A program made the position numbers and the translations under genes. Under the pieces are notes generated by a model. It was given only the letters and a program-made list of their open reading frames with translations. It did not search any database and was not told the DNA's origin. 6,681 bases of DNA from a virus, in the IMG/VR virus record IMGVR_UViG_3300005515_000473, positions 1-6,681 of that record, one strand, 5' to 3'. Below are positions 1 through 4,841 of the stretch, piece by piece; position 1 is the first letter of the stretch; each line of letters starts with the position of its first letter.

Positions 1-120
1 TGGATTTCTTAGCTTGTTGCAGGCTCAAATGCACCAGGTACAAACAGCCGTTTAATCCATGCAGCCATTGCCCAGCGTAGGGCACGGCGGCGACGTCGCG
101 TATTTGACATAATATAGATT
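1..120. repeat. Terminal direct repeat, left copy (identical to 6562-6681); marks circular closure or a tandem junction of a 6561-nt unit
   Basis: Base-by-base comparison shows 1-120 equals 6562-6681 exactly. Both copies run up to the window edges, so this is an overlap rather than a bounded att repeat. Confidence 0.95.
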
Positions 121-491
121 CGTTCGGACTGCGGCTTCGAAGTAGGGCTGTAGGTACGGGCTTCCGCATTTTGCGGTGTCAAAAATCCAGTGACACCGAC
201 AGCCATAACTGCGCTAGCGGCCATCGCTGCCGTACGGCTCATAAAAACCGACCAGAGGGAGCTTTGTCCGGAGCGCTCGGCTCGATCTATGTCGGCGGCC
301 ATGATGACTTTGAGCGGGTCAATTTCGAGCGTTAGCGCAACTGCGAGGCACATCTCGTTTTCCATGATGCGTGCACCGCTCTTGTATTGACTAATGGCCG
401 CTTTCGTCACTCCGAAATGGTCGGCCAGCTCTTTGTCTGCATGAAGGCCAAGTTTGCTTTTGACCTGGTCGAGATATTGTGCGCTTTTCAT
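9..491 (-). CDS. Phage repressor, XRE/Cro-CI-type helix-turn-helix N-terminal domain; the C-terminal part has a hydrophobic segment and an Arg-run tail
   Basis: 160-aa ORF. The N-terminus DKELADHFGVTKAAISQYKSG (about nt 375-437) is a classic HTH_3-type motif. SD GAGG lies 6 nt upstream of the ATG (plus-strand CCTC 498-501). The ATG overlaps the upstream gene stop (ATGA). A minus-strand intrinsic terminator lies about 25 nt past the stop in circular coordinates. No S24 peptidase motifs are visible. Confidence 0.85.
   Translation of the reverse strand: MKSAQYLDQVKSKLGLHADKELADHFGVTKAAISQYKSGARIMENEMCLAVALTLEIDPLKVIMAADIDRAERSGQSSLWSVFMSRTAAMAASAVMAVGVTGFLTPQNAEARTYSPTSKPQSERIYIMSNTRRRRRALRWAMAAWIKRLFVPGAFEPATS
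102..129 (-). other. dif-like site (candidate attP for host XerCD): good XerD arm and central region, poor XerC arm
   Basis: The minus strand reads GTCCGAACGAA TCTATA TTATGTCAAAT. Against E. coli dif GGTGCGCATAA TGTATA TTATGTTAAAT, the central region plus XerD arm match 15/17, while the XerC arm matches only 3/11. No integrase is encoded. The core is duplicated at 6663-6679. Confidence 0.5.
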
Positions 492-847
492 TTTTGTCCT
501 CTTGTGAGGCGTTCCGTTTCTAATGGCCTGTTCGTCTGCTTTAGCCGTTGTAGCTCTTGTAATTGAGCTTTTTCCAATCGTAGCTTTTCTTCCGGCAGCG
601 ATTTCTTTTCCAGCTGTTGCCGCCTTAGTTCTTCAAGCTTCTTTTGCTGAAGCGCTTCAAGAGCTGGAGCAGGCTTTCTTACTTCAATGTCGGCTATCGC
701 GCCTCTAGTTGCAACGAAGGGTTGTTCGCACTCTTCGTTAGTCACAATCTTGCGTCCGTCTGGCGCTTGGCAAACATGTATTTCCGCGCGCGCGAGTGGT
801 GTGATTGTGGCAACAAATAGGAAAACCGCTATTTTTCCACTTGACAA
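488..847 (-). CDS. Secreted small protein: Sec signal peptide, Cys-containing DUF4124-like N-terminal motif, E/K/Q/L-rich coiled-coil C-terminus
   Basis: 119-aa ORF with a TTG start at 845-847, GGAG 6 nt upstream (plus CTCC 854-857) and an in-frame TAA just before it. The signal peptide MSSGKIAVFLFVATITPLARA has an A-X-A cleavage motif. IHVCQAPDGRKIVTNEECEQP resembles the DUF4124 pattern as I recall it. The C-terminal part shows heptad-like repeats. The TGA stop overlaps the repressor ATG. Confidence 0.7.
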   Translation of the reverse strand: MSSGKIAVFLFVATITPLARAEIHVCQAPDGRKIVTNEECEQPFVATRGAIADIEVRKPAPALEALQQKKLEELRRQQLEKKSLPEEKLRLEKAQLQELQRLKQTNRPLETERLTRGQK

Positions 848-869
848 TTAACGCTCCGTTAACTAAGGT
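841..869 (+). promoter_or_regulatory. Candidate sigma70 promoter for the plus-strand replication and structural operon
   Basis: TTGACA (841-846), a 17-bp spacer, then TAAGGT (864-869). It sits just upstream of the first plus-strand ORF, with a CGTTAACT motif in the spacer. Confidence 0.55.
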
Positions 870-900
870 TCACGCATCGTTAACTTAACACTGCGTGAAC
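868..900. promoter_or_regulatory. 33-bp near-perfect palindrome, candidate operator of the lysis/lysogeny switch
   Basis: The sequence is GTTCACGCA tc GTTAA c TTAAC ac TGCGTGAAC. Arms 868-876 and 892-900 are perfectly complementary, as are the inner arms 879-883 and 885-889. It lies between the -10 elements of both candidate promoters. Confidence 0.6.
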
Positions 901-1134
901 TGCATGAATCGTATTGGTTTACCGGCAACAGGTCAACAGGACTTTCTCTCCAATTGTCACAATGTGGCTCAGCGTGTACGCGCTCATGCCGCTGCCGGTA
1001 ACCGCGTGACCTGGTGGATGGACCAGGAGCGCGCCGAACTGCGTAAGGAGCCGGCCTGGCGCCAGGTGTTCGACCATTTGGCCGAGGCACATACCGGCGC
1101 GGCGGTTGCGGCCTTTCTCGGAGTTTCGAAGTGA
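895..1134 (+). CDS. Hypothetical 79-aa protein (76 aa if it starts at ATG 904), first gene of the plus-strand operon; possible early regulator
   Basis: It is the only sensible plus-strand ORF between the switch region and rep, and its amino-acid composition is balanced. Its TGA (1132-1134) overlaps the rep start (GTGATG), which implies coupling. No clear SD and no recognisable domain. Confidence 0.45.
   Translation: MNCMNRIGLPATGQQDFLSNCHNVAQRVRAHAAAGNRVTWWMDQERAELRKEPAWRQVFDHLAEAHTGAAVAAFLGVSK
908..936 (-). promoter_or_regulatory. Candidate sigma70 promoter for the minus-strand secreted-protein and repressor operon
   Basis: The minus strand reads TTGACC (plus 936-931), a 17-nt spacer, then TACGAT (plus 913-908). 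The predicted start near 900 would put the whole palindrome in the 5' leader. Confidence 0.45.
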
Positions 1135-2201
1135 TGGGCCAGAGCGGCGCAGCCGCCGCCCGAAGCCGAGCCCTGCGAGGCGAGGGGGGCGGCGTAGCCG
1201 CTTCACCCCGTACTGTAAAACGGGGTGAAAGTCCCAGCAGGACCGCTGACAGCGGCGTCATCGTTGACTGGCTCCGTTTTACCTTCCTACCTTCCGGGCC
1301 GATCTCTCATGCCCTGGAACAGTTGTCCCTCTATTTCAAGCTCTGGTTTCCGATCCAGGTGACGATGGTGCAGAGCAAGCGGGGCCTTCACGGCTATCAG
1401 GCGAGTCACGATGTGATGGCGCTGATCGATGGCGAGGCGGTGCGGCTGGCGATTGTGGCCTGTGGTGGCGATAACGTCGGCGGCACGATGTGTGTCGATC
1501 TGAGCGGTACAGGTTGTGCGGTGGTCGAAGACTGGCAAGCGGTCTATGCGACGTTGCAGGACCTCGATGCGCGAATCACCAGGTGCGATTTGGCGGTGGA
1601 CTTCCTGGATGGCCAGTACTCCCTGGAGCAAGTTGAGGACATGTATTTCGCCGGGCAGTTCAATGCTGGCGGTCGCATTCCGAAGTATTACCGGCACGAA
1701 GGAGGGGACTTGAATTCACGTGGCTGTTTGGGCAGGACGTTTGAAATTGGGCGTCGTGCCTCGGGCAAGCTGGTGCGGGCCTACGAGAAGGGCAAGCAGC
1801 TTGGTAACCAGGAGAGCAATTGGCTCCGGATCGAGATCGAGTTGCACAACAAGAATCGCGTCATTCCGCATGACGTGATCTTGAAGACTGCCGAATATTT
1901 CGCGGGGGCTCATAAGGCGCTGGAAGGCTTCATTGATGCGGCTTCCCGCAAGATTCCTACGCTGCAGAGGCAACATGAAGACGAGTTGACCCGAAGGGTG
2001 CGCCATATGCGCAACCAGTACGGCAAGACGCTCGATCAGGCCTGCAAGTTCTATGACGAAGATTTCGCCGCATTGATAGCTGATATCAGGGTGACGGGCA
2101 TCCCGGCATCGATGCATAAAACCGCCTTGGCAAGGCACGTGTACGGCCCTCACGACCCAGGGCCGAATGATGAAGGGGTATCACATGGAAATGCTGGCTA
2201 A
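1131..2201 (+). CDS. Rolling-circle replication initiation protein, Rep_trans (PF02486) / RstA-like family (inovirus gII equivalent)
   Basis: 356-aa ORF with family-typical motifs: VDWLRFTF, RCDLAVDF, VRAYEKGKQ (candidate catalytic Tyr) and WLRIEIEL. GGAG (1120-1123) lies 7 nt before GTG 1131 and 10 nt before ATG 1134. There is no alternative start between 1134 and the DWLRFTF motif. Confidence 0.9.
   Translation: MMGQSGAAAARSRALRGEGGGVAASPRTVKRGESPSRTADSGVIVDWLRFTFLPSGPISHALEQLSLYFKLWFPIQVTMVQSKRGLHGYQASHDVMALIDGEAVRLAIVACGGDNVGGTMCVDLSGTGCAVVEDWQAVYATLQDLDARITRCDLAVDFLDGQYSLEQVEDMYFAGQFNAGGRIPKYYRHEGGDLNSRGCLGRTFEIGRRASGKLVRAYEKGKQLGNQESNWLRIEIELHNKNRVIPHDVILKTAEYFAGAHKALEGFIDAASRKIPTLQRQHEDELTRRVRHMRNQYGKTLDQACKFYDEDFAALIADIRVTGIPASMHKTALARHVYGPHDPGPNDEGVSHGNAG
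1202..1229 (+). other. Perfect 10-bp GC-rich hairpin inside the rep 5' coding region
   Basis: TTCACCCCGT (1202-1211) pairs with ACGGGGTGAA (1220-1229) around the 8-nt loop ACTGTAAA. A second small hairpin, CCGCT gac AGCGG, follows at 1243-1255. Confidence 0.6.
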
Positions 2202-2496
2202 GGTCACTATTCGCGGCGCTAAGCTGTTTCGCGGCAATCTCGATGGCAAGGACATCGACAGCGGCAAGATCTTCACGGATGTGGAGTTGAGCGGGGAAAA
2301 CTCTTGGGGCGTCTGCACCCAGGAGATGAAGTGCGAAGGCTCGAAGCTGATCGATGGCATCAAGCACAACAGCTTCCCCTTCATCGCGGAGATCGGCGTC
2401 GTTCAGAAGAGTACTGGTAGCAAGACGTCGATGGTTGTTACGAGCATTAAGCCGCTGCAGCGCGAAGCTGGTAAGCAGGCTCCGGCGGCTGCTTAA
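2185..2496 (+). CDS. Candidate ssDNA-binding protein (gV equivalent)
   Basis: About 103 aa, immediately after rep and overlapping its end, as in other inoviruses. SD GAAGGGG (2172-2178) lies 6 nt before ATG 2185. The call rests on position and size only; ATG 2167 and 2191 are alternative starts. Confidence 0.5.
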   Translation: MEMLAKVTIRGAKLFRGNLDGKDIDSGKIFTDVELSGENSWGVCTQEMKCEGSKLIDGIKHNSFPFIAEIGVVQKSTGSKTSMVVTSIKPLQREAGKQAPAAA

Positions 2497-2498
2497 AC

Positions 2499-2753
2499 AT
2501 GGGGGTCTGTGCGAAGGTGGTGCGGCAGGATGATGGCACGTTACTGCTTGCGCTTGACCCCTCTGTGACGGATATCTCCACGTGCGCCTACGTGGTTGAT
2601 TCGGGTGCGAGTAATGCTTGGCGCGAGCTGGGCAATATGAGCATTCGGGATGCCGAAGTGATTAGCCTGAACGTTGGTTGGGTTTGGGCGGTCGCTTGGG
2701 GATGGAAGGCGATTTCGAGAGCAATCTCTATCAAACATGAAGACAAGGAGTAA
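2499..2753 (+). CDS. Small protein with a Trp-rich C-terminal hydrophobic segment; candidate minor virion or morphogenesis protein
   Basis: 84-aa ORF packed between the ssDNA-binding candidate (stop 2494-2496) and the coat gene. The segment VISLNVGWVWAVAWGWKAI looks like a membrane anchor. No family recognised. Confidence 0.5.
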   Translation: MGVCAKVVRQDDGTLLLALDPSVTDISTCAYVVDSGASNAWRELGNMSIRDAEVISLNVGWVWAVAWGWKAISRAISIKHEDKE

Positions 2754-2755
2754 CC

Positions 2756-2965
2756 ATGGATAAGTTTCTGAAGCGTGTTGCAGGTGTGGCGGTTGCTGGT
2801 GCGGCTGCTGCATCCACTTCCGCTTACGCGGCTGACGGGATCGACACCACGACCATTATTGCTGCCATCACCGCTGCCGGTGCTGCTGCTGTGGTGGTCG
2901 GTGCTGCATACACCGGTGTGGTCGCAAGCATCAAGGCGTTCAAGCTGATTCGTTCCGCGATGTAA
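2756..2965 (+). CDS. Major coat protein (g8p equivalent) precursor
   Basis: 69 aa. The signal peptide MDKFLKRVAGVAVAGAAAASTSAYA ends in an A-X-A site. The mature 44-aa peptide has an acidic N-terminus (ADGID), an Ala/Gly/Val hydrophobic core and a basic C-terminus (KAFKLIRSAM), similar to my recollection of the Xf coat ending KWVRRAM. Strong SD AAGGAG (2745-2750) lies 5 nt before the ATG, and a terminator follows. Confidence 0.9.
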   Translation: MDKFLKRVAGVAVAGAAAASTSAYAADGIDTTTIIAAITAAGAAAVVVGAAYTGVVASIKAFKLIRSAM

Positions 2966-2986
2966 GGGCTAGCGCTTTGACGTTCT

Positions 2987-3013
2987 AAGGGGCGCTTTTG
3001 CGCTCCTTTTTTT
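2987..3013 (+). terminator. Rho-independent terminator after the major coat gene
   Basis: AAGGGGCGC (2987-2995), loop TTTT, then GCGCTCCTT (3000-3008) give a 9-bp stem with one G-U pair, running into a T7 tract (3007-3013). A terminator after g8 is the classic Ff arrangement. Confidence 0.8.
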
Positions 3014-3090
3014 ATGGAGTGAGGTATGGGGCTTATTGTGCTGGTGACCTACTTGGGCGTGTGGTGGATTCTCTTTTCGGACTGATCGTG

Positions 3091-4533
3091 ATGCGGAAAT
3101 TATTTATATCGTTTTTGCTGCTGTTCGTTGCCGGGGCGGCGTCGGCTGAGACTGTCTGGTATCACTACAACTTCCCGAACGATACCTTTTCTTCTTCGCC
3201 GTCGGCATCGTGCGCATTAGGTATTGCGAAGATGTCCGGCAAGACGTCGACCGGCGCGTCTCAGGCTGCGAATGGTAGCTATGACTGTAATTGTTCTTGG
3301 AAGGCTTATCCGGGCGCTCCTGACACGTTTGGTTCCTGTGGTCAGGCGACGTCTACGACAAAGGCAAGTTGCGCTGTTGGTGATGAGCGGAAGCCTGATG
3401 GGTCTTGTGGCCCTCCGCCGCCAAAGCCTTGTAACACTCCCGCAGGCCAGCCTGTTAGCTGGGCGGGTTATGTGGGTCATTCGGCTAGTTCCAGCGCCAA
3501 TATGCCGGATGGCGGCGGTAGCGGTTTGCCGGGTCAATCTGATTCGTGCGGGATTGCGGGTGGCACGCCGGATAGTGTTGGTAAGTGCTATGCCACTCCG
3601 GCTGCTGGTGGTGGTCAGGACTTCTGGTGCAACTACACCGGTACATCCAATGGTCAGCAAGCTACTCCGTCAAGCGGCACGCCTAAGCCTCCTGGTGATG
3701 GAACTCCTTCCAAGCCTACAGGTATGCCTCCGTCGAAGGCTGGCCCCTCTGGCGGTTGTCCTGCTGGAACGACTCAAGGGGGCGTATCGCCTGACGGTAT
3801 GGCGGTGTGTGTCGGTTCTGGAACGAATCCGACGGGCGCTAATGGTGGGGCGGCTGGTGATGCGAATCCTACGACTTCCACTACTACTAAGTCGGTCGAT
3901 GCTAATGGTAATCCGGTCGAGACAACGAGAGAGACTCGCCCGAATGGTGATGGGTCTACTACGACTAAGACGACTGAGAAGACAACTAATCCGGATGGCA
4001 GCACTTCGACTACTACTAAGACGGTTACCGGTTTAGATCCGAATGGAAAGCAGGGCCAGCCTGACAAGCCTGATACCGATTTTTGTCGCCTTCATCCTGA
4101 GCTGAACATGTGTCGCAATTCGTCTATTTCCGGCCAGTGCGGGCAGATTAGCTGCATGGGTGATGCAATCCAGTGCGCGACCTTGCGCGAAGCTGCGACG
4201 ATTCAGTGTCGTCAGAAAGAGGCTGAGGATGCAATTAAAGCTAGTCCTCAGTACACGTTGGGTAACGCTGCTGGCAATGGTAATGATCCTGAAAAGGGAA
4301 GCTTGCCAGCACCTGGAAACGGCACGACTGTTGATGTTTCGGCGCTTAGTGCTGATGGCTGGTTGGGCGGTGGCGCACCCATTGAAGATGTGTCTGTGGA
4401 GTTTCAGGGTCAGTCGATTGTGATCCCCTTTTCTAAGGCTGCTAGTGCATTGATCGTGTTGCGGTACGCATTGATGGTGGCGGCTTCTCTTATTTCCTTC
4501 CGCATCCTGTCGGGTGCAGTTCTTGGGAGCTAA
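3091..4533 (+). CDS. Minor coat / adsorption protein (g3p equivalent)
   Basis: 480 aa from ATG 3091. It has the signal peptide MRKLFISFLLLFVAGAASA, a Cys-rich N-terminal region, Pro/Gly/Ser and Thr-rich linkers (PPPPKP; TPKPPGDGTPSKPTGMPPSK; STTTKT-type repeats), a Cys-rich C-terminal domain and a C-terminal membrane anchor (ALIVLRYALMVAASLISFRIL). It sits between the coat gene and the g6-like gene. Confidence 0.8.
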   Translation: MRKLFISFLLLFVAGAASAETVWYHYNFPNDTFSSSPSASCALGIAKMSGKTSTGASQAANGSYDCNCSWKAYPGAPDTFGSCGQATSTTKASCAVGDERKPDGSCGPPPPKPCNTPAGQPVSWAGYVGHSASSSANMPDGGGSGLPGQSDSCGIAGGTPDSVGKCYATPAAGGGQDFWCNYTGTSNGQQATPSSGTPKPPGDGTPSKPTGMPPSKAGPSGGCPAGTTQGGVSPDGMAVCVGSGTNPTGANGGAAGDANPTTSTTTKSVDANGNPVETTRETRPNGDGSTTTKTTEKTTNPDGSTSTTTKTVTGLDPNGKQGQPDKPDTDFCRLHPELNMCRNSSISGQCGQISCMGDAIQCATLREAATIQCRQKEAEDAIKASPQYTLGNAAGNGNDPEKGSLPAPGNGTTVDVSALSADGWLGGGAPIEDVSVEFQGQSIVIPFSKAASALIVLRYALMVAASLISFRILSGAVLGS

Positions 4534-4536
4534 ATC

Positions 4537-4839
4537 ATGCCTTTGCTCTATGCGCTTGGCGGTTTGTTGTTGCGGTTGACCGGGCCGCTGGTTGGTCGTG
4601 TGTTGCTTGCACTTGGTCTTACCTTTGTGACGTTTAAAGGTGTGAATGCCGGTATTGACTGGTTGCTCGTTCAGATCAAGTCGAATATGAGTGCGATGCC
4701 AGCCCAGGCATTGCAGCTTCTGGGTTATCTGTGGGTCGATAAGGCCATAAGTATGATGTTCTCTGCCTATGCGGCGGCTTCGGTCATCAAGATGGCTGGC
4801 AGTGCGACGTTTACGCGGCTTGTGACTAAGGGGGCGTAG
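4537..4839 (+). CDS. Minor coat membrane protein (g6p equivalent; DUF2523-like)
   Basis: 100 aa, strongly hydrophobic with several predicted helices. SD GGGAG (4525-4529) lies 7 nt before the ATG. Its position between g3-like and zot-like genes is typical of Xanthomonas/Ralstonia-type inoviruses. Confidence 0.7.
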   Translation: MPLLYALGGLLLRLTGPLVGRVLLALGLTFVTFKGVNAGIDWLLVQIKSNMSAMPAQALQLLGYLWVDKAISMMFSAYAAASVIKMAGSATFTRLVTKGA

Positions 4840-4841
4840 GC

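What the first reader, a model, noticed from the sequence alone, without database searches (positions are those of the whole stretch)
488..847. Secreted coiled-coil protein translationally coupled upstream of the repressor: candidate lysogenic-conversion or exclusion factor
The first gene of the repressor operon encodes a protein with a clear Sec signal peptide. It also has a two-Cys DUF4124-like motif and a long E/K/Q/L coiled coil. Its stop overlaps the repressor ATG (ATGA). It should therefore be made whenever the repressor is made, that is in lysogens, and exported to the periplasm. Inovirus entry uses pili and periplasmic TolA-like coreceptors. A prophage-expressed periplasmic protein is thus a plausible superinfection-exclusion or host-phenotype-modifying factor. 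No such function is established for this family.
Basis: inference. Interest (0 to 1): 0.7.

Follow-up and report, generated by a model that had tools for sequence, protein, structure and literature searches.

The report
Exported small protein in phage immunity operon
A filamentous prophage of a soil Pseudoduganella/Duganella bacterium carries a real but usually unannotated gene for a small exported protein just upstream of its repressor gene; it is probably an optional envelope-acting accessory factor, and its function is untested.

Summary
The observation largely holds. Window 488-847 (-) is a genuine 119-aa gene. It has a TTG start with GGAG 6 nt upstream, and its TGA overlaps the repressor ATG (ATGA). 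Five independent loci carry homologues, all with the same TTG start and the same 4-nt overlap. dN/dS is 0.2-0.4. The N-terminus is a textbook Sec/SPase I signal peptide (ARA|E). It is followed by a C-x13-C beta-hairpin and a ~45-aa charged helix.

Two descriptors are weaker than stated:
- Pfam DUF4124 does not hit the protein. Full-length profile comparison gives 96% probability, but the hairpin domain alone gives only 10.6%.
- The helix shows no heptad periodicity.

The window is the circular form of a 6.56-kb phiRSS-like inovirus. It is found 100% identical as a dif-integrated prophage in Pseudoduganella/Duganella-like contigs. Close relatives lack the gene or carry other cargo in the same slot, so it is an optional accessory gene ("moron") of the immunity cassette.

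A role in superinfection exclusion or envelope modification is plausible. The one characterised DUF4124 protein, TfpC, acts on type IV pili, and phiRSS-type phages need those pili. That role remains untested, and some published evidence argues against it. Interest is moderate.

The parts
488..847 (-). Gene for the 119-aa exported protein. It has a TTG start and a TGA stop that overlaps the repressor ATG.
   Evidence: ORF. TTG, SD and ATGA are conserved in 5 loci. dN/dS is 0.19-0.37. The gene is 100% identical in the integrated prophages L017-L020.
785..847 (-). Codons 1-21: Sec/SPase I signal peptide MSSGKIAVFLFVATITPLARA, with predicted cleavage ARA|E.
   Evidence: Rule-based n/h/c analysis. 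The cleavage motif is conserved in homologues. AF2 predicts helix over residues 5-19. It aligns to the signal peptides of PF13511 proteins.
713..784 (-). Codons 22-45: beta-hairpin module EIHVCQAPDGRKIVTNEECEQPFV carrying C26 and C40 (C-x13-C).
   Evidence: Invariant residues V25 C26 A28 P29 D30 G31 T36 N37 C40 P43. AF2 strands at 24-27 and 33-36. This is the most constrained part of the gene, dN/dS 0.1-0.2.
533..670 (-). Codons 60-105: charged, Leu-containing alpha-helix. It is fast-evolving and 28 residues shorter in three homologues.
   Evidence: AF2 helix 60-105, block-mean pLDDT 77-94. No significant heptad or amphipathic periodicity. Indels and dN/dS 0.3-0.5.
854..857 (-). Shine-Dalgarno GGAG, 6 nt upstream of the TTG start.
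   Evidence: Sequence reading. Invariant in all loci.
488..491 (-). ATGA stop/start overlap between the exported-protein gene and the repressor gene.
   Evidence: The same overlap occurs in L005, L007, L008 and L013.
497..501 (-). GAGGA, the repressor's own Shine-Dalgarno, located inside the 3' end of the upstream gene.
   Evidence: Sequence reading. GGAG/GAGG-type purine runs are present in all five loci.
9..491 (-). CI-like HTH repressor. It is 160 aa in the circular form and 135 aa in the prophage, and is a homologue of phiRSS0/RSS20 ORF13.
   Evidence: Pfam Phage_CI_repr/HTH_3, weak. phrog_638, E 4.5e-30. tblastn 45-52% identity to Ralstonia RSS phages. Prophage form.
908..936 (-). Candidate sigma-70 promoter of the exported-protein/repressor operon (TTGACC-17-TACGAT).
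   Evidence: Promoter scan. The scan finds about 0.7 such sites by chance in this region. Conserved in L005-L007, and its 3' part in L008, whose contig ends inside it. Function is inferred.
848..901 (.). Three 17-nt operator-like repeats (848-864, 869-885, 885-901) between the divergent operons.
   Evidence: the repeat finder family D1 and inverted repeats I1/I2. Nearly invariant across the loci although the proteins diverge. Repressor binding is inferred.
841..869 (+). Possible plus-strand promoter (TTGACA 841-846, 17-nt spacer, TAAGGT 864-869). Its -35 box overlaps the TTG start codon of the exported-protein gene.
   Evidence: My own reading of the sequence. It falls below the scan's threshold. 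It would explain why codons 1-6 (MSSGKI) are invariant at the DNA level.
102..120 (.). attP core ATTTGACATAATATAGATT (dif-like), inside the 3' end of the repressor gene.
   Evidence: A 19-bp direct repeat flanks the 100%-identical prophage in L017. This matches phiRSS0, where dif/attP lies within ORF13 (PMC3816273).

Best explanation
Window 488-847 (-) encodes a small accessory protein of a temperate phiRSS-like inovirus. The phage lives in Pseudoduganella/Duganella (Oxalobacteraceae).

Shown:
- It is a real gene under purifying selection.
- It is the promoter-proximal cistron of a two-gene immunity operon. A CI-like repressor follows, with a 4-nt stop/start overlap.
- This arrangement is conserved wherever the gene occurs.

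Strongly inferred from sequence: the product has a cleavable Sec signal peptide. After export it is a ~98-aa soluble periplasmic protein. It consists of a disulfide-capable beta-hairpin (C-x13-C), a flexible linker and a ~45-aa highly charged helix.

Inferred:
- It shares promoter and operators with the repressor, so it should be made whenever the repressor is made. That means in lysogens and in chronically infected cells.
- Close relatives replicate and assemble without it, so it is not part of the core life cycle.
- My preferred mechanism: the hairpin module docks the protein at an envelope structure, and the variable charged helix binds a periplasmic partner on the phage entry route. Candidates are the type IV pilus alignment or secretin complex, or the Tol coreceptor. 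Incoming related filamentous phages would then be excluded, complementing repressor immunity. Pilus-dependent host traits could change as a side effect.

Likelihoods: about 0.85 that it is an exported protein co-expressed with the repressor. About 0.6 that it is an envelope-acting accessory factor. About 0.3 that it specifically mediates exclusion through the entry apparatus.
For: - Gene reality: five independent loci share the TTG start, GGAG and ATGA overlap. dN/dS is 0.19-0.37 overall and 0.1-0.2 in the hairpin. An exhaustive phmmer search finds only this small family plus a DUF4124 protein.
- Export: signal-peptide features and conserved -3/-1 residues. AF2 architecture.
- Operon: one promoter-like site upstream and none inside the gene. 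Operators are invariant.
- Linkage to the immunity cassette: between window and L005 the Rep proteins are 47% identical, the exported protein 69% and the repressor 78%. The leader and operator region is almost identical.
- Accessory status: absent from Ralstonia RSS phages and WC36-1. The slot holds TM+DUF2726 in Collimonas prophages.
- Lysogeny: a 100%-identical prophage is integrated at a dif-like site.
- Entry-route link: the architecture and C-x13-C spacing are shared with PF13511 proteins. The DUF4124 protein TfpC acts on type IV pilus stability (PMC7593972). The phiRSS-type phage RSCq needs T4P genes (PMC12680784). The inovirus Pf4 encodes a T4P-directed exclusion protein, PfsE (PMC8764522).
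Against: - There are no functional data of any kind.
- Pfam DUF4124 is not matched. The hairpin-only profile comparison is weak, at 10.6%. The TfpC analogy therefore rests on architecture, not on demonstrated homology.
- The tfpC deletion in N. meningitidis does not change MDA phage transduction (PMC12819557).
- The receptor of this phage is unknown.
- No PHROG, PADLOC, NCBIfam, PDB or BFVD match exists.
- The repressor alone can give immunity, as proposed for phiRSS0 ORF13 (PMC3816273).
- No signature of positive selection was seen, which might be expected for a protein in an arms race.
- The TTG start suggests low expression.
Confidence: 0.45

Rival explanations
1. Lysogenic-conversion factor rather than an exclusion factor. 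The periplasmic protein would tune a host envelope machine for the benefit of the lysogen, without blocking phage entry. One example is stabilising extended type IV pili as TfpC does, changing adhesion, biofilm or twitching.
For: TfpC, a DUF4124 protein with a signal peptide, an extended linker and a charged helical C-terminus, stabilises pili (PMC7593972). phiRSS and phiRSM infections change twitching and virulence in Ralstonia (PMC3816273). The architecture is shared with PF13511 proteins.
Against: DUF4124 membership is not established. The Ralstonia phenotypes were attributed to the repressor ORF13/ORF15 or to virions, and those phages lack this gene. The host is a soil or rhizosphere bacterium with no known selected phenotype.
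Confidence: 0.2
2. Protection against another envelope-directed threat. The protein would be a periplasmic immunity or decoy protein against T6SS effectors, bacteriocins or unrelated phages, carried as cargo in a variable defence slot.
For: The same slot holds a membrane-anchored DUF2726 nuclease-like protein in Collimonas prophages. This suggests a cargo site for defence-type genes. DUF4124 genes sit upstream of vgrG in Ralstonia T6SS auxiliary clusters (PMC11481896).
Against: There is no PADLOC hit. No partner toxin gene is present. The T6SS association is a single descriptive sentence about a family to which membership is unproven.
Confidence: 0.1
3. The ORF is mainly a regulatory leader cistron. 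Translation from a weak TTG would set repressor translation through termination-reinitiation at ATGA, and the peptide itself would matter little.
For: The ATGA overlap and the TTG start are conserved in 5 of 5 loci. Start-codon and SD sequences overlap the divergent promoter/operator DNA.
Against: The repressor has its own SD in every locus, and no conserved structure masks it. The hairpin domain is under strong purifying selection, with invariant Cys, PDG and TN residues. A 119-codon exported protein is an unlikely leader. Relatives express the repressor without any leader ORF.
Confidence: 0.1
4. Morphogenesis helper. The phage has no secretin gene, so a periplasmic adaptor might link its Zot-like assembly ATPase to a host secretin.
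For: The genome encodes Rep, coat, g3-like, DUF2523 and Zot proteins but no pIV-like secretin. The protein is periplasmic by prediction.
Against: The gene lies in the repressor operon, on the strand opposite to all morphogenesis genes. It is missing from related phiRSS phages, which also lack a secretin yet produce virions. It travels with the immunity cassette rather than with the assembly module.
Confidence: 0.07
5. Spurious ORF. Gene callers skip or truncate it because it is not a gene.
For: It is not called in L017-L020. It is called only from GTG (V35) in the JGI data. It has a TTG start and 47.8% GC against 55% for the genome.
Against: The full-length frame with its signal peptide is conserved at 40-69% amino-acid identity across loci whose synonymous sites are near saturation. 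dN/dS is below 0.4. V35/GTG is not conserved, whereas TTG and GGAG are.
Confidence: 0.03

Closest known systems
DUF4124 (Pfam PF13511) periplasmic proteins, including N. gonorrhoeae TfpC
   Same: N-terminal Sec signal peptide, followed directly by a short beta-hairpin, then a linker and a highly charged helical C-terminus. In the methanotroph DUF4124 proteins nearest to it, the two Cys have the identical C-x13-C spacing and the hairpin Gly is in register. phmmer gives E 4.3e-4 against a bona fide member, P0005.
   Different: It fails the Pfam threshold, and the hairpin-only profile match is weak. It is shorter: the mature protein is 98 aa, against about 147 for TfpC. It is phage-borne and sits in an immunity operon, whereas the nearest DUF4124 relatives found here are chromosomal.
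PfsE (PA0721) of Pseudomonas inovirus Pf4
   Same: A small protein encoded by a filamentous prophage that acts in the envelope. PfsE blocks superinfection by inhibiting type IV pili (PMC8764522). This is the functional precedent for the preferred hypothesis.
   Different: [quoted passage not shown] It binds PilC (PMC8764522). No sequence relation was found: the target matches no PHROG family. The protein here is predicted to be soluble in the periplasm.
phiRSS0 ORF13 immunity module of Ralstonia filamentous phages
   Same: The repressor is homologous at 45-52% identity. It is divergent from the Rep operon. dif/attP lies inside the repressor's 3' end, so integration changes its C-terminus (PMC3816273).
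   Different: The Ralstonia phages have no gene between the operators and the repressor. The exported-protein gene is an addition specific to the Oxalobacteraceae-type cassette.
Accessory genes co-transcribed with a prophage repressor (lambda rexAB with cI; own knowledge)
   Same: Same logic: accessory genes ride on the maintenance transcript and so are expressed in lysogens.
   Different: Here the accessory gene lies upstream of the repressor and overlaps it. Its product is exported, and the phage is an inovirus.
Periplasmic exclusion by Ff g3p binding TolA (own knowledge)
   Same: A phage protein in the periplasm occupies the entry coreceptor and makes cells resistant to further filamentous-phage infection.
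   Different: That effect comes from the virion protein itself. This protein has no similarity to the window's g3-like protein and is not a structural protein.

Membership tests
DUF4124 (PF13511) | Scores above Pfam's gathering threshold (22 bits) against the PF13511 HMM. | tested here: not met
   The window protein has no hit at E<=10. Of the 5 family members, only P0004 hits, at 13.1 bits, E 0.12.
DUF4124 (PF13511) | Detectable homology to bona fide members by profile methods. | tested here: inconclusive
   Full-length hhalign gives 96.4% probability, E 1.4e-9, with both Cys in register. phmmer gives E 4.3e-4 to P0005, which scores 27.4 bits in Pfam. The Cys-hairpin region alone gives only 10.6% probability, P 0.003. 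Most of the signal therefore comes from the signal peptide and the charged helix.
DUF4124 (PF13511) | Architecture: signal peptide, then a short beta-hairpin at the mature N-terminus, then a low-complexity or helical tail. | tested here: met
   AF2 secondary structure. Alignments A2 and A3.
TfpC-type type IV pilus factor | Orthology to NGO0783 or Dsui_1049, and a pilus-stability phenotype. | not testable with these tools
   The TfpC sequence was not on hand, because the paper's figure is not held. The phenotype needs experiments (PMC7593972).
Sec/SPase I secreted protein | Positively charged n-region, 10-15-residue hydrophobic h-region, small residues at -3/-1, and no lipobox. | tested here: met
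   The signal peptide reads MSSGK / IAVFLFVATITPL / ARA|E. No Cys lies at +1. The feature is conserved in 5 homologues, and this is the only ORF of 71 to pass the filter. SignalP was not available, and export is not shown experimentally.
Coiled coil | Heptad repeat with hydrophobic a/d positions over at least 4 heptads. | tested here: not met
   The best register gives 6 of 14 a/d hydrophobic residues, and 3-4 of 8 per 28-residue window. Periodicity at 3.5-3.6 is reached by 308 of 2000 shuffles. A long helix is predicted. Oligomer prediction was not possible.
Translationally coupled gene pair | Stop/start overlap, with the downstream cistron lacking independent ribosome access. | tested here: inconclusive
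   The ATGA overlap is conserved in 5 of 5 loci. The repressor nevertheless has its own SD, and no conserved masking structure exists.
Known phage superinfection-exclusion or defence families (PHROGs, PADLOC) | Sequence match to a described family. | tested here: not met
   No PHROG, PADLOC or NCBIfam hit.
phiRSS-type XerCD/dif-integrating inovirus | Rep_trans replication protein, Zot-like assembly ATPase, ORF13-like repressor containing the dif-like attP, and a prophage flanked by dif repeats. | tested here: met
   Pfam hits. Rep is 56-62% identical to PE226, RSS1 and RSCq. Repressor homology. 19-bp repeats flank the identical prophage.

The most novel reading that the evidence does not exclude
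The protein is a phage-captured, miniaturised DUF4124/TfpC-like module. It would act from the periplasm on the type IV pilus machine or on its retraction-dependent uptake step, making lysogens refractory to filamentous-phage entry. That would be the first periplasmic pilus-directed exclusion factor of an inovirus, hard-wired to the repressor by a 4-nt overlap. It would also give a function to a branch of the uncharacterised DUF4124 superfamily.
Probability: 0.2. Interest if true: 0.7.

Novelty: new variant of a known kind. Interest (0 to 1): 0.4.

Why it matters
If the protein acts on the entry apparatus, temperate inoviruses of soil Betaproteobacteria would pair repressor immunity with an exported exclusion factor in one overlapping operon. 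A function would also be attached to a DUF4124-like module.

There are two practical points as well. TTG-initiated genes next to inovirus operators are systematically missed or truncated by gene callers. The slot between operators and repressor is a variable cargo site that is worth mining.

As it stands, this is a rare family of five known loci with no functional evidence, so the significance is moderate.

Tried and rejected
Searches that found nothing:
- Megablast of the genome against GenBank phages.
- tblastn of the protein against phages: only chance hits at E=1.
- Word-indexed protein search with the single sequence: only the window's own truncated gene call.
- Peptide-pattern scans for relatives of the protein in viral contigs, genome contigs and metagenome contigs.
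- Exact-DNA scans with the conserved leader in viral and metagenome contigs. The MSSGKI pattern may have been back-translated as ATG although the start is TTG.
- PDB sequence profile, and Foldseek against PDB and BFVD. This is expected for a hairpin plus a single helix.
- PHROGs, NCBIfam and PADLOC for the target protein.
- A conserved RNA structure at the junction.

Hypotheses rejected:
- Spurious ORF.
- The GTG (V35) start used by the JGI gene call. It is not conserved in homologues, whereas TTG and GGAG are.
- A canonical coiled coil.
- Positive selection on the helix.

- SignalP or DeepCoil predictions.
- Direct comparison with the TfpC sequence.
- Multimer or complex structure prediction.
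- Inspecting the Cys-Cys distance in the model.
Full report
WHAT THE WINDOW IS

The 6681-nt window is a circularly permuted inovirus genome of 6561 nt with a 120-nt terminal overlap. It encodes:
- a Rep_trans initiator (1131-2201, 98.6 bits);
- a CoatB major coat protein (2756-2965);
- a g3-like protein (3100-4533);
- a DUF2523 protein (4537-4839);
- a Zot-type assembly ATPase (4842-6050);
- a CI-like HTH repressor on the opposite strand (9-491).

Rep is 56-62% identical to Ralstonia phages PE226, RSS1 and RSCq. The repressor is 45-52% identical to ORF13 of phiRSS0/RSS20. No close DNA relative exists among deposited phages.

THE OBSERVATION

ORF 488-847 (-) exists exactly as described.
- It starts with TTG. 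An in-frame TAA lies directly upstream, and GGAG lies 6 nt before the start.
- Its TGA overlaps the repressor ATG as ATGA.
- The N-terminus MSSGK-IAVFLFVATITPL-ARA|E has the n, h and c regions of a Sec/SPase I signal peptide and no lipobox.
- It was the only one of 71 ORFs to pass a strict rule-based signal-peptide filter.
- AlphaFold2 was run on a 25-sequence alignment (mean pLDDT 74.7). It gives a signal helix (5-19), a beta-hairpin (24-27 and 33-36), a low-confidence linker and one long helix (60-105, block-mean pLDDT 77-94).

The helix is rich in E, K, R, Q and L but has no convincing heptad. The best register gives 6 of 14 a/d hydrophobic positions. Periodicity at 3.5-3.6 residues is matched by 15% of shuffles. 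'Charged helix' is therefore established; 'coiled coil' is not.

HOMOLOGUES AND SYNTENY

The word-indexed search found only the window's own JGI gene call, truncated to a GTG at V35. An exhaustive phmmer search of 1.84 billion representatives found four relatives and one chance repeat protein. A profile search added one more short homologue and many DUF4124 proteins.

The contigs behind them show one arrangement every time. This holds for L005 (a root metagenome), L006/L007, L008/L009 and L013. In each, a TTG-initiated MSSGKI... gene overlaps a downstream repressor gene by 4 nt. That repressor is 74-87% identical to the others.

Further points from these loci:
- Where upstream DNA is available, the pair lies divergent from a Rep_trans operon.
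- In L008/L009 the repressor is followed by host genes, so these are prophage ends.
- The cleavage motif varies only among small residues (ARA, ANA, GRA, SQA, GNA).
- V25, C26, A28-P29-D30-G31, T36, N37, C40 and P43 are invariant.
- Pairwise dN/dS is 0.19-0.37 for this gene and 0.04-0.16 for the repressor.
- By region, the hairpin is most constrained (0.1-0.2). The signal-peptide core drifts freely. The linker and helix evolve fast (0.3-0.5), with 28 residues of indels and no excess of non-synonymous change.

This is a real protein-coding gene. V35/GTG is not conserved, so the truncated JGI calls are miscalls. In four assemblies that carry the identical prophage, the gene was not called at all.

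AN OPTIONAL PART OF THE IMMUNITY CASSETTE

Between window and L005 the Rep proteins are 47% identical. The exported protein is 69% identical and the repressor 78%. The leader and operator DNA is almost invariant.

Ralstonia RSS20, RSBg and YO006_3, and phage WC36-1, have the homologous repressor directly next to the divergent control region, with no such gene. Collimonas prophages carry a membrane-anchored DUF2726 protein (68.6 bits) in the same position and orientation. A third relative carries an unrelated opposite-strand ORF there. The slot between operators and repressor is therefore a variable cargo site.

REGULATORY CONTEXT

- A minus-strand promoter-like site (TTGACC-17-TACGAT, 936-908) is the only one found on that strand in 1-1400. 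It is conserved in the homologous loci.
- Three 17-nt operator-like repeats fill 848-901.
- A possible plus-strand -35 box (TTGACA, 841-846) overlaps the TTG start. This would explain why codons 1-6 are invariant even at synonymous sites. This promoter is my own reading and was not called by the scan.
- Co-transcription with the repressor is thus likely but inferred.
- Translational coupling is possible, but the repressor keeps its own GAGGA/GGAG Shine-Dalgarno in every locus. No conserved RNA structure hides it.

PROPHAGE AND HOST

The window's Zot protein occurs on several ENA soil-metagenome contigs. In L017-L020 a prophage 100% identical to window 102-6681 is flanked by the 19-bp repeat ATTTGACATAATATAGATT. 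This dif-like attP lies inside the repressor's 3' end. The repressor is therefore 160 aa in the circular form and 135 aa in the prophage. The same was described for phiRSS0 ORF13 (PMC3816273). The flanking YcaO gene is 97% identical to Pseudoduganella proteins and 96% to Duganella proteins. The phage is thus temperate, and the target gene is present and intact in lysogens.

IS IT DUF4124?

- Pfam does not match the window protein even at E<=10. One family member reaches 13.1 bits against a cut-off of 22.
- phmmer links the window protein to a Methylosoma protein at E 4.3e-4. That protein is a bona fide PF13511 member at 27.4 bits.
- hhalign of the five-member family against 13 PF13511-annotated proteins gives 96.4% probability. 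Both Cys are in register with identical C-x13-C spacing.
- As a control I repeated hhalign on the 37-residue Cys-hairpin region alone. Probability fell to 10.6% (P 0.003).

The resemblance is therefore real at the level of architecture and motif spacing. Homology of the domain itself is unproven. 'DUF4124-like' is fair; 'DUF4124 member' is not established.

MECHANISM

Shown:
- It is a real gene.
- It has a conserved position and a conserved overlap with the repressor.
- It is present in lysogens.
- It is dispensable among relatives.

Strongly inferred: it is exported by Sec and cleaved after A21, giving a soluble 98-aa periplasmic protein with a disulfide-capable hairpin.

Inferred: it is co-expressed with the repressor and acts in the envelope.

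My preferred reading is exclusion of incoming related inoviruses by interference with the entry route (about 0.3). It draws on four points:
- The only characterised DUF4124 protein, TfpC, is a periplasmic factor that keeps type IV pili extended (PMC7593972).
- The phiRSS-type phage RSCq cannot infect pilA, pilB or pilN mutants (PMC12680784).
- Pf4 encodes the pilus-directed exclusion protein PfsE (PMC8764522).
- Ff g3p excludes through TolA (own knowledge).

Against it:
- DUF4124 membership is unproven.
- Deleting tfpC in N. meningitidis leaves MDA phage transduction unchanged (PMC12819557).
- The receptor of this phage is unknown.
- Repressor immunity may be enough on its own.

The rivals are host-phenotype conversion through pili (0.2), protection from other envelope threats (0.1), a regulatory leader cistron (0.1), a morphogenesis adaptor (0.07) and a spurious ORF (0.03). 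Each has its evidence and refutation test in the structured fields.

NOVELTY AND VERDICT

Accessory genes riding on a prophage's maintenance transcript are a known kind. So are small envelope proteins that block superinfection. The new elements are:
- a Sec-exported DUF4124-like protein placed upstream of an inovirus repressor and overlapping it;
- the conservation of the pair as a mobile immunity cassette;
- the systematic failure of gene callers to annotate it.

The family is tiny (five loci plus identical copies) and its function is untested. I rate interest at 0.4. The most novel reading still open, a periplasmic pilus-directed exclusion factor derived from a TfpC-like module, gets probability 0.2 and interest 0.7 if true.

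Noticed in passing
window 102-120 (= 6663-6681); L017 5261-5279 and 11822-11840: The 19-bp dif-like core ATTTGACATAATATAGATT is the attachment site. It flanks a prophage 100% identical to the window. It lies inside the repressor's 3' end, so the repressor is 160 aa in the circular form and 135 aa when integrated. The window's 120-nt terminal overlap ends exactly at this core.
   Followed up: yes
window 848-901: Three 17-nt operator-like imperfect palindromes (TTAACGCTCCGTTAACT and two variants) lie between the divergent operons. They are nearly invariant in five loci whose proteins have diverged strongly. This suggests a single immunity type.
   Followed up: partly
L010 7276-7887 and L011 7276-7887 (Collimonas prophages); L012 7348-7917: In related prophages, the slot between the control region and the repressor holds different cargo. 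Two prophages have a 203-aa protein with an N-terminal TM segment and a DUF2726 nuclease-like domain, with a weak PADLOC hit to mREase_II. A third has an unrelated 189-aa ORF on the opposite strand.
   Followed up: partly
L017-L020 5647-6006; JGI proteins P0001 and P0002: Automatic gene callers either skip the TTG-initiated gene entirely or start it at an internal GTG (V35), which removes the signal peptide. Database searches therefore under-report the family.
   Followed up: yes
window 6360-6641 (+): A conserved small phage gene (phrog_27692, E 6.8e-21) is present. Its 3' end is antisense to the C-terminal extension that the repressor has only in the circular form.
   Followed up: no
window 895/904-1134 (+); L005 1095-1298 (-); L006 1553-1783 (-): The first plus-strand gene begins MNRIGLPATGQQ... 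in all loci, but its remainder differs. In L006, extra small genes (119 and 47 aa) lie between it and Rep. The conserved N-terminus overlaps the minus-strand promoter.
   Followed up: no
window, whole genome: No pIV-like secretin gene is present, so virion export presumably uses a host secretin. The target gene has 47.8% GC against 55.3% for the genome.
   Followed up: no
L016 3868-5507; L014 540-2227: The nearest chromosomal DUF4124 relatives, from methanotrophs, sit directly downstream of a conserved 367-379-aa protein with no Pfam hit. In L016 they also lie upstream of an SNF2-family helicase; the 763-aa gene downstream in L014 has no recorded Pfam annotation. This neighbourhood was not examined further.
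   Followed up: no
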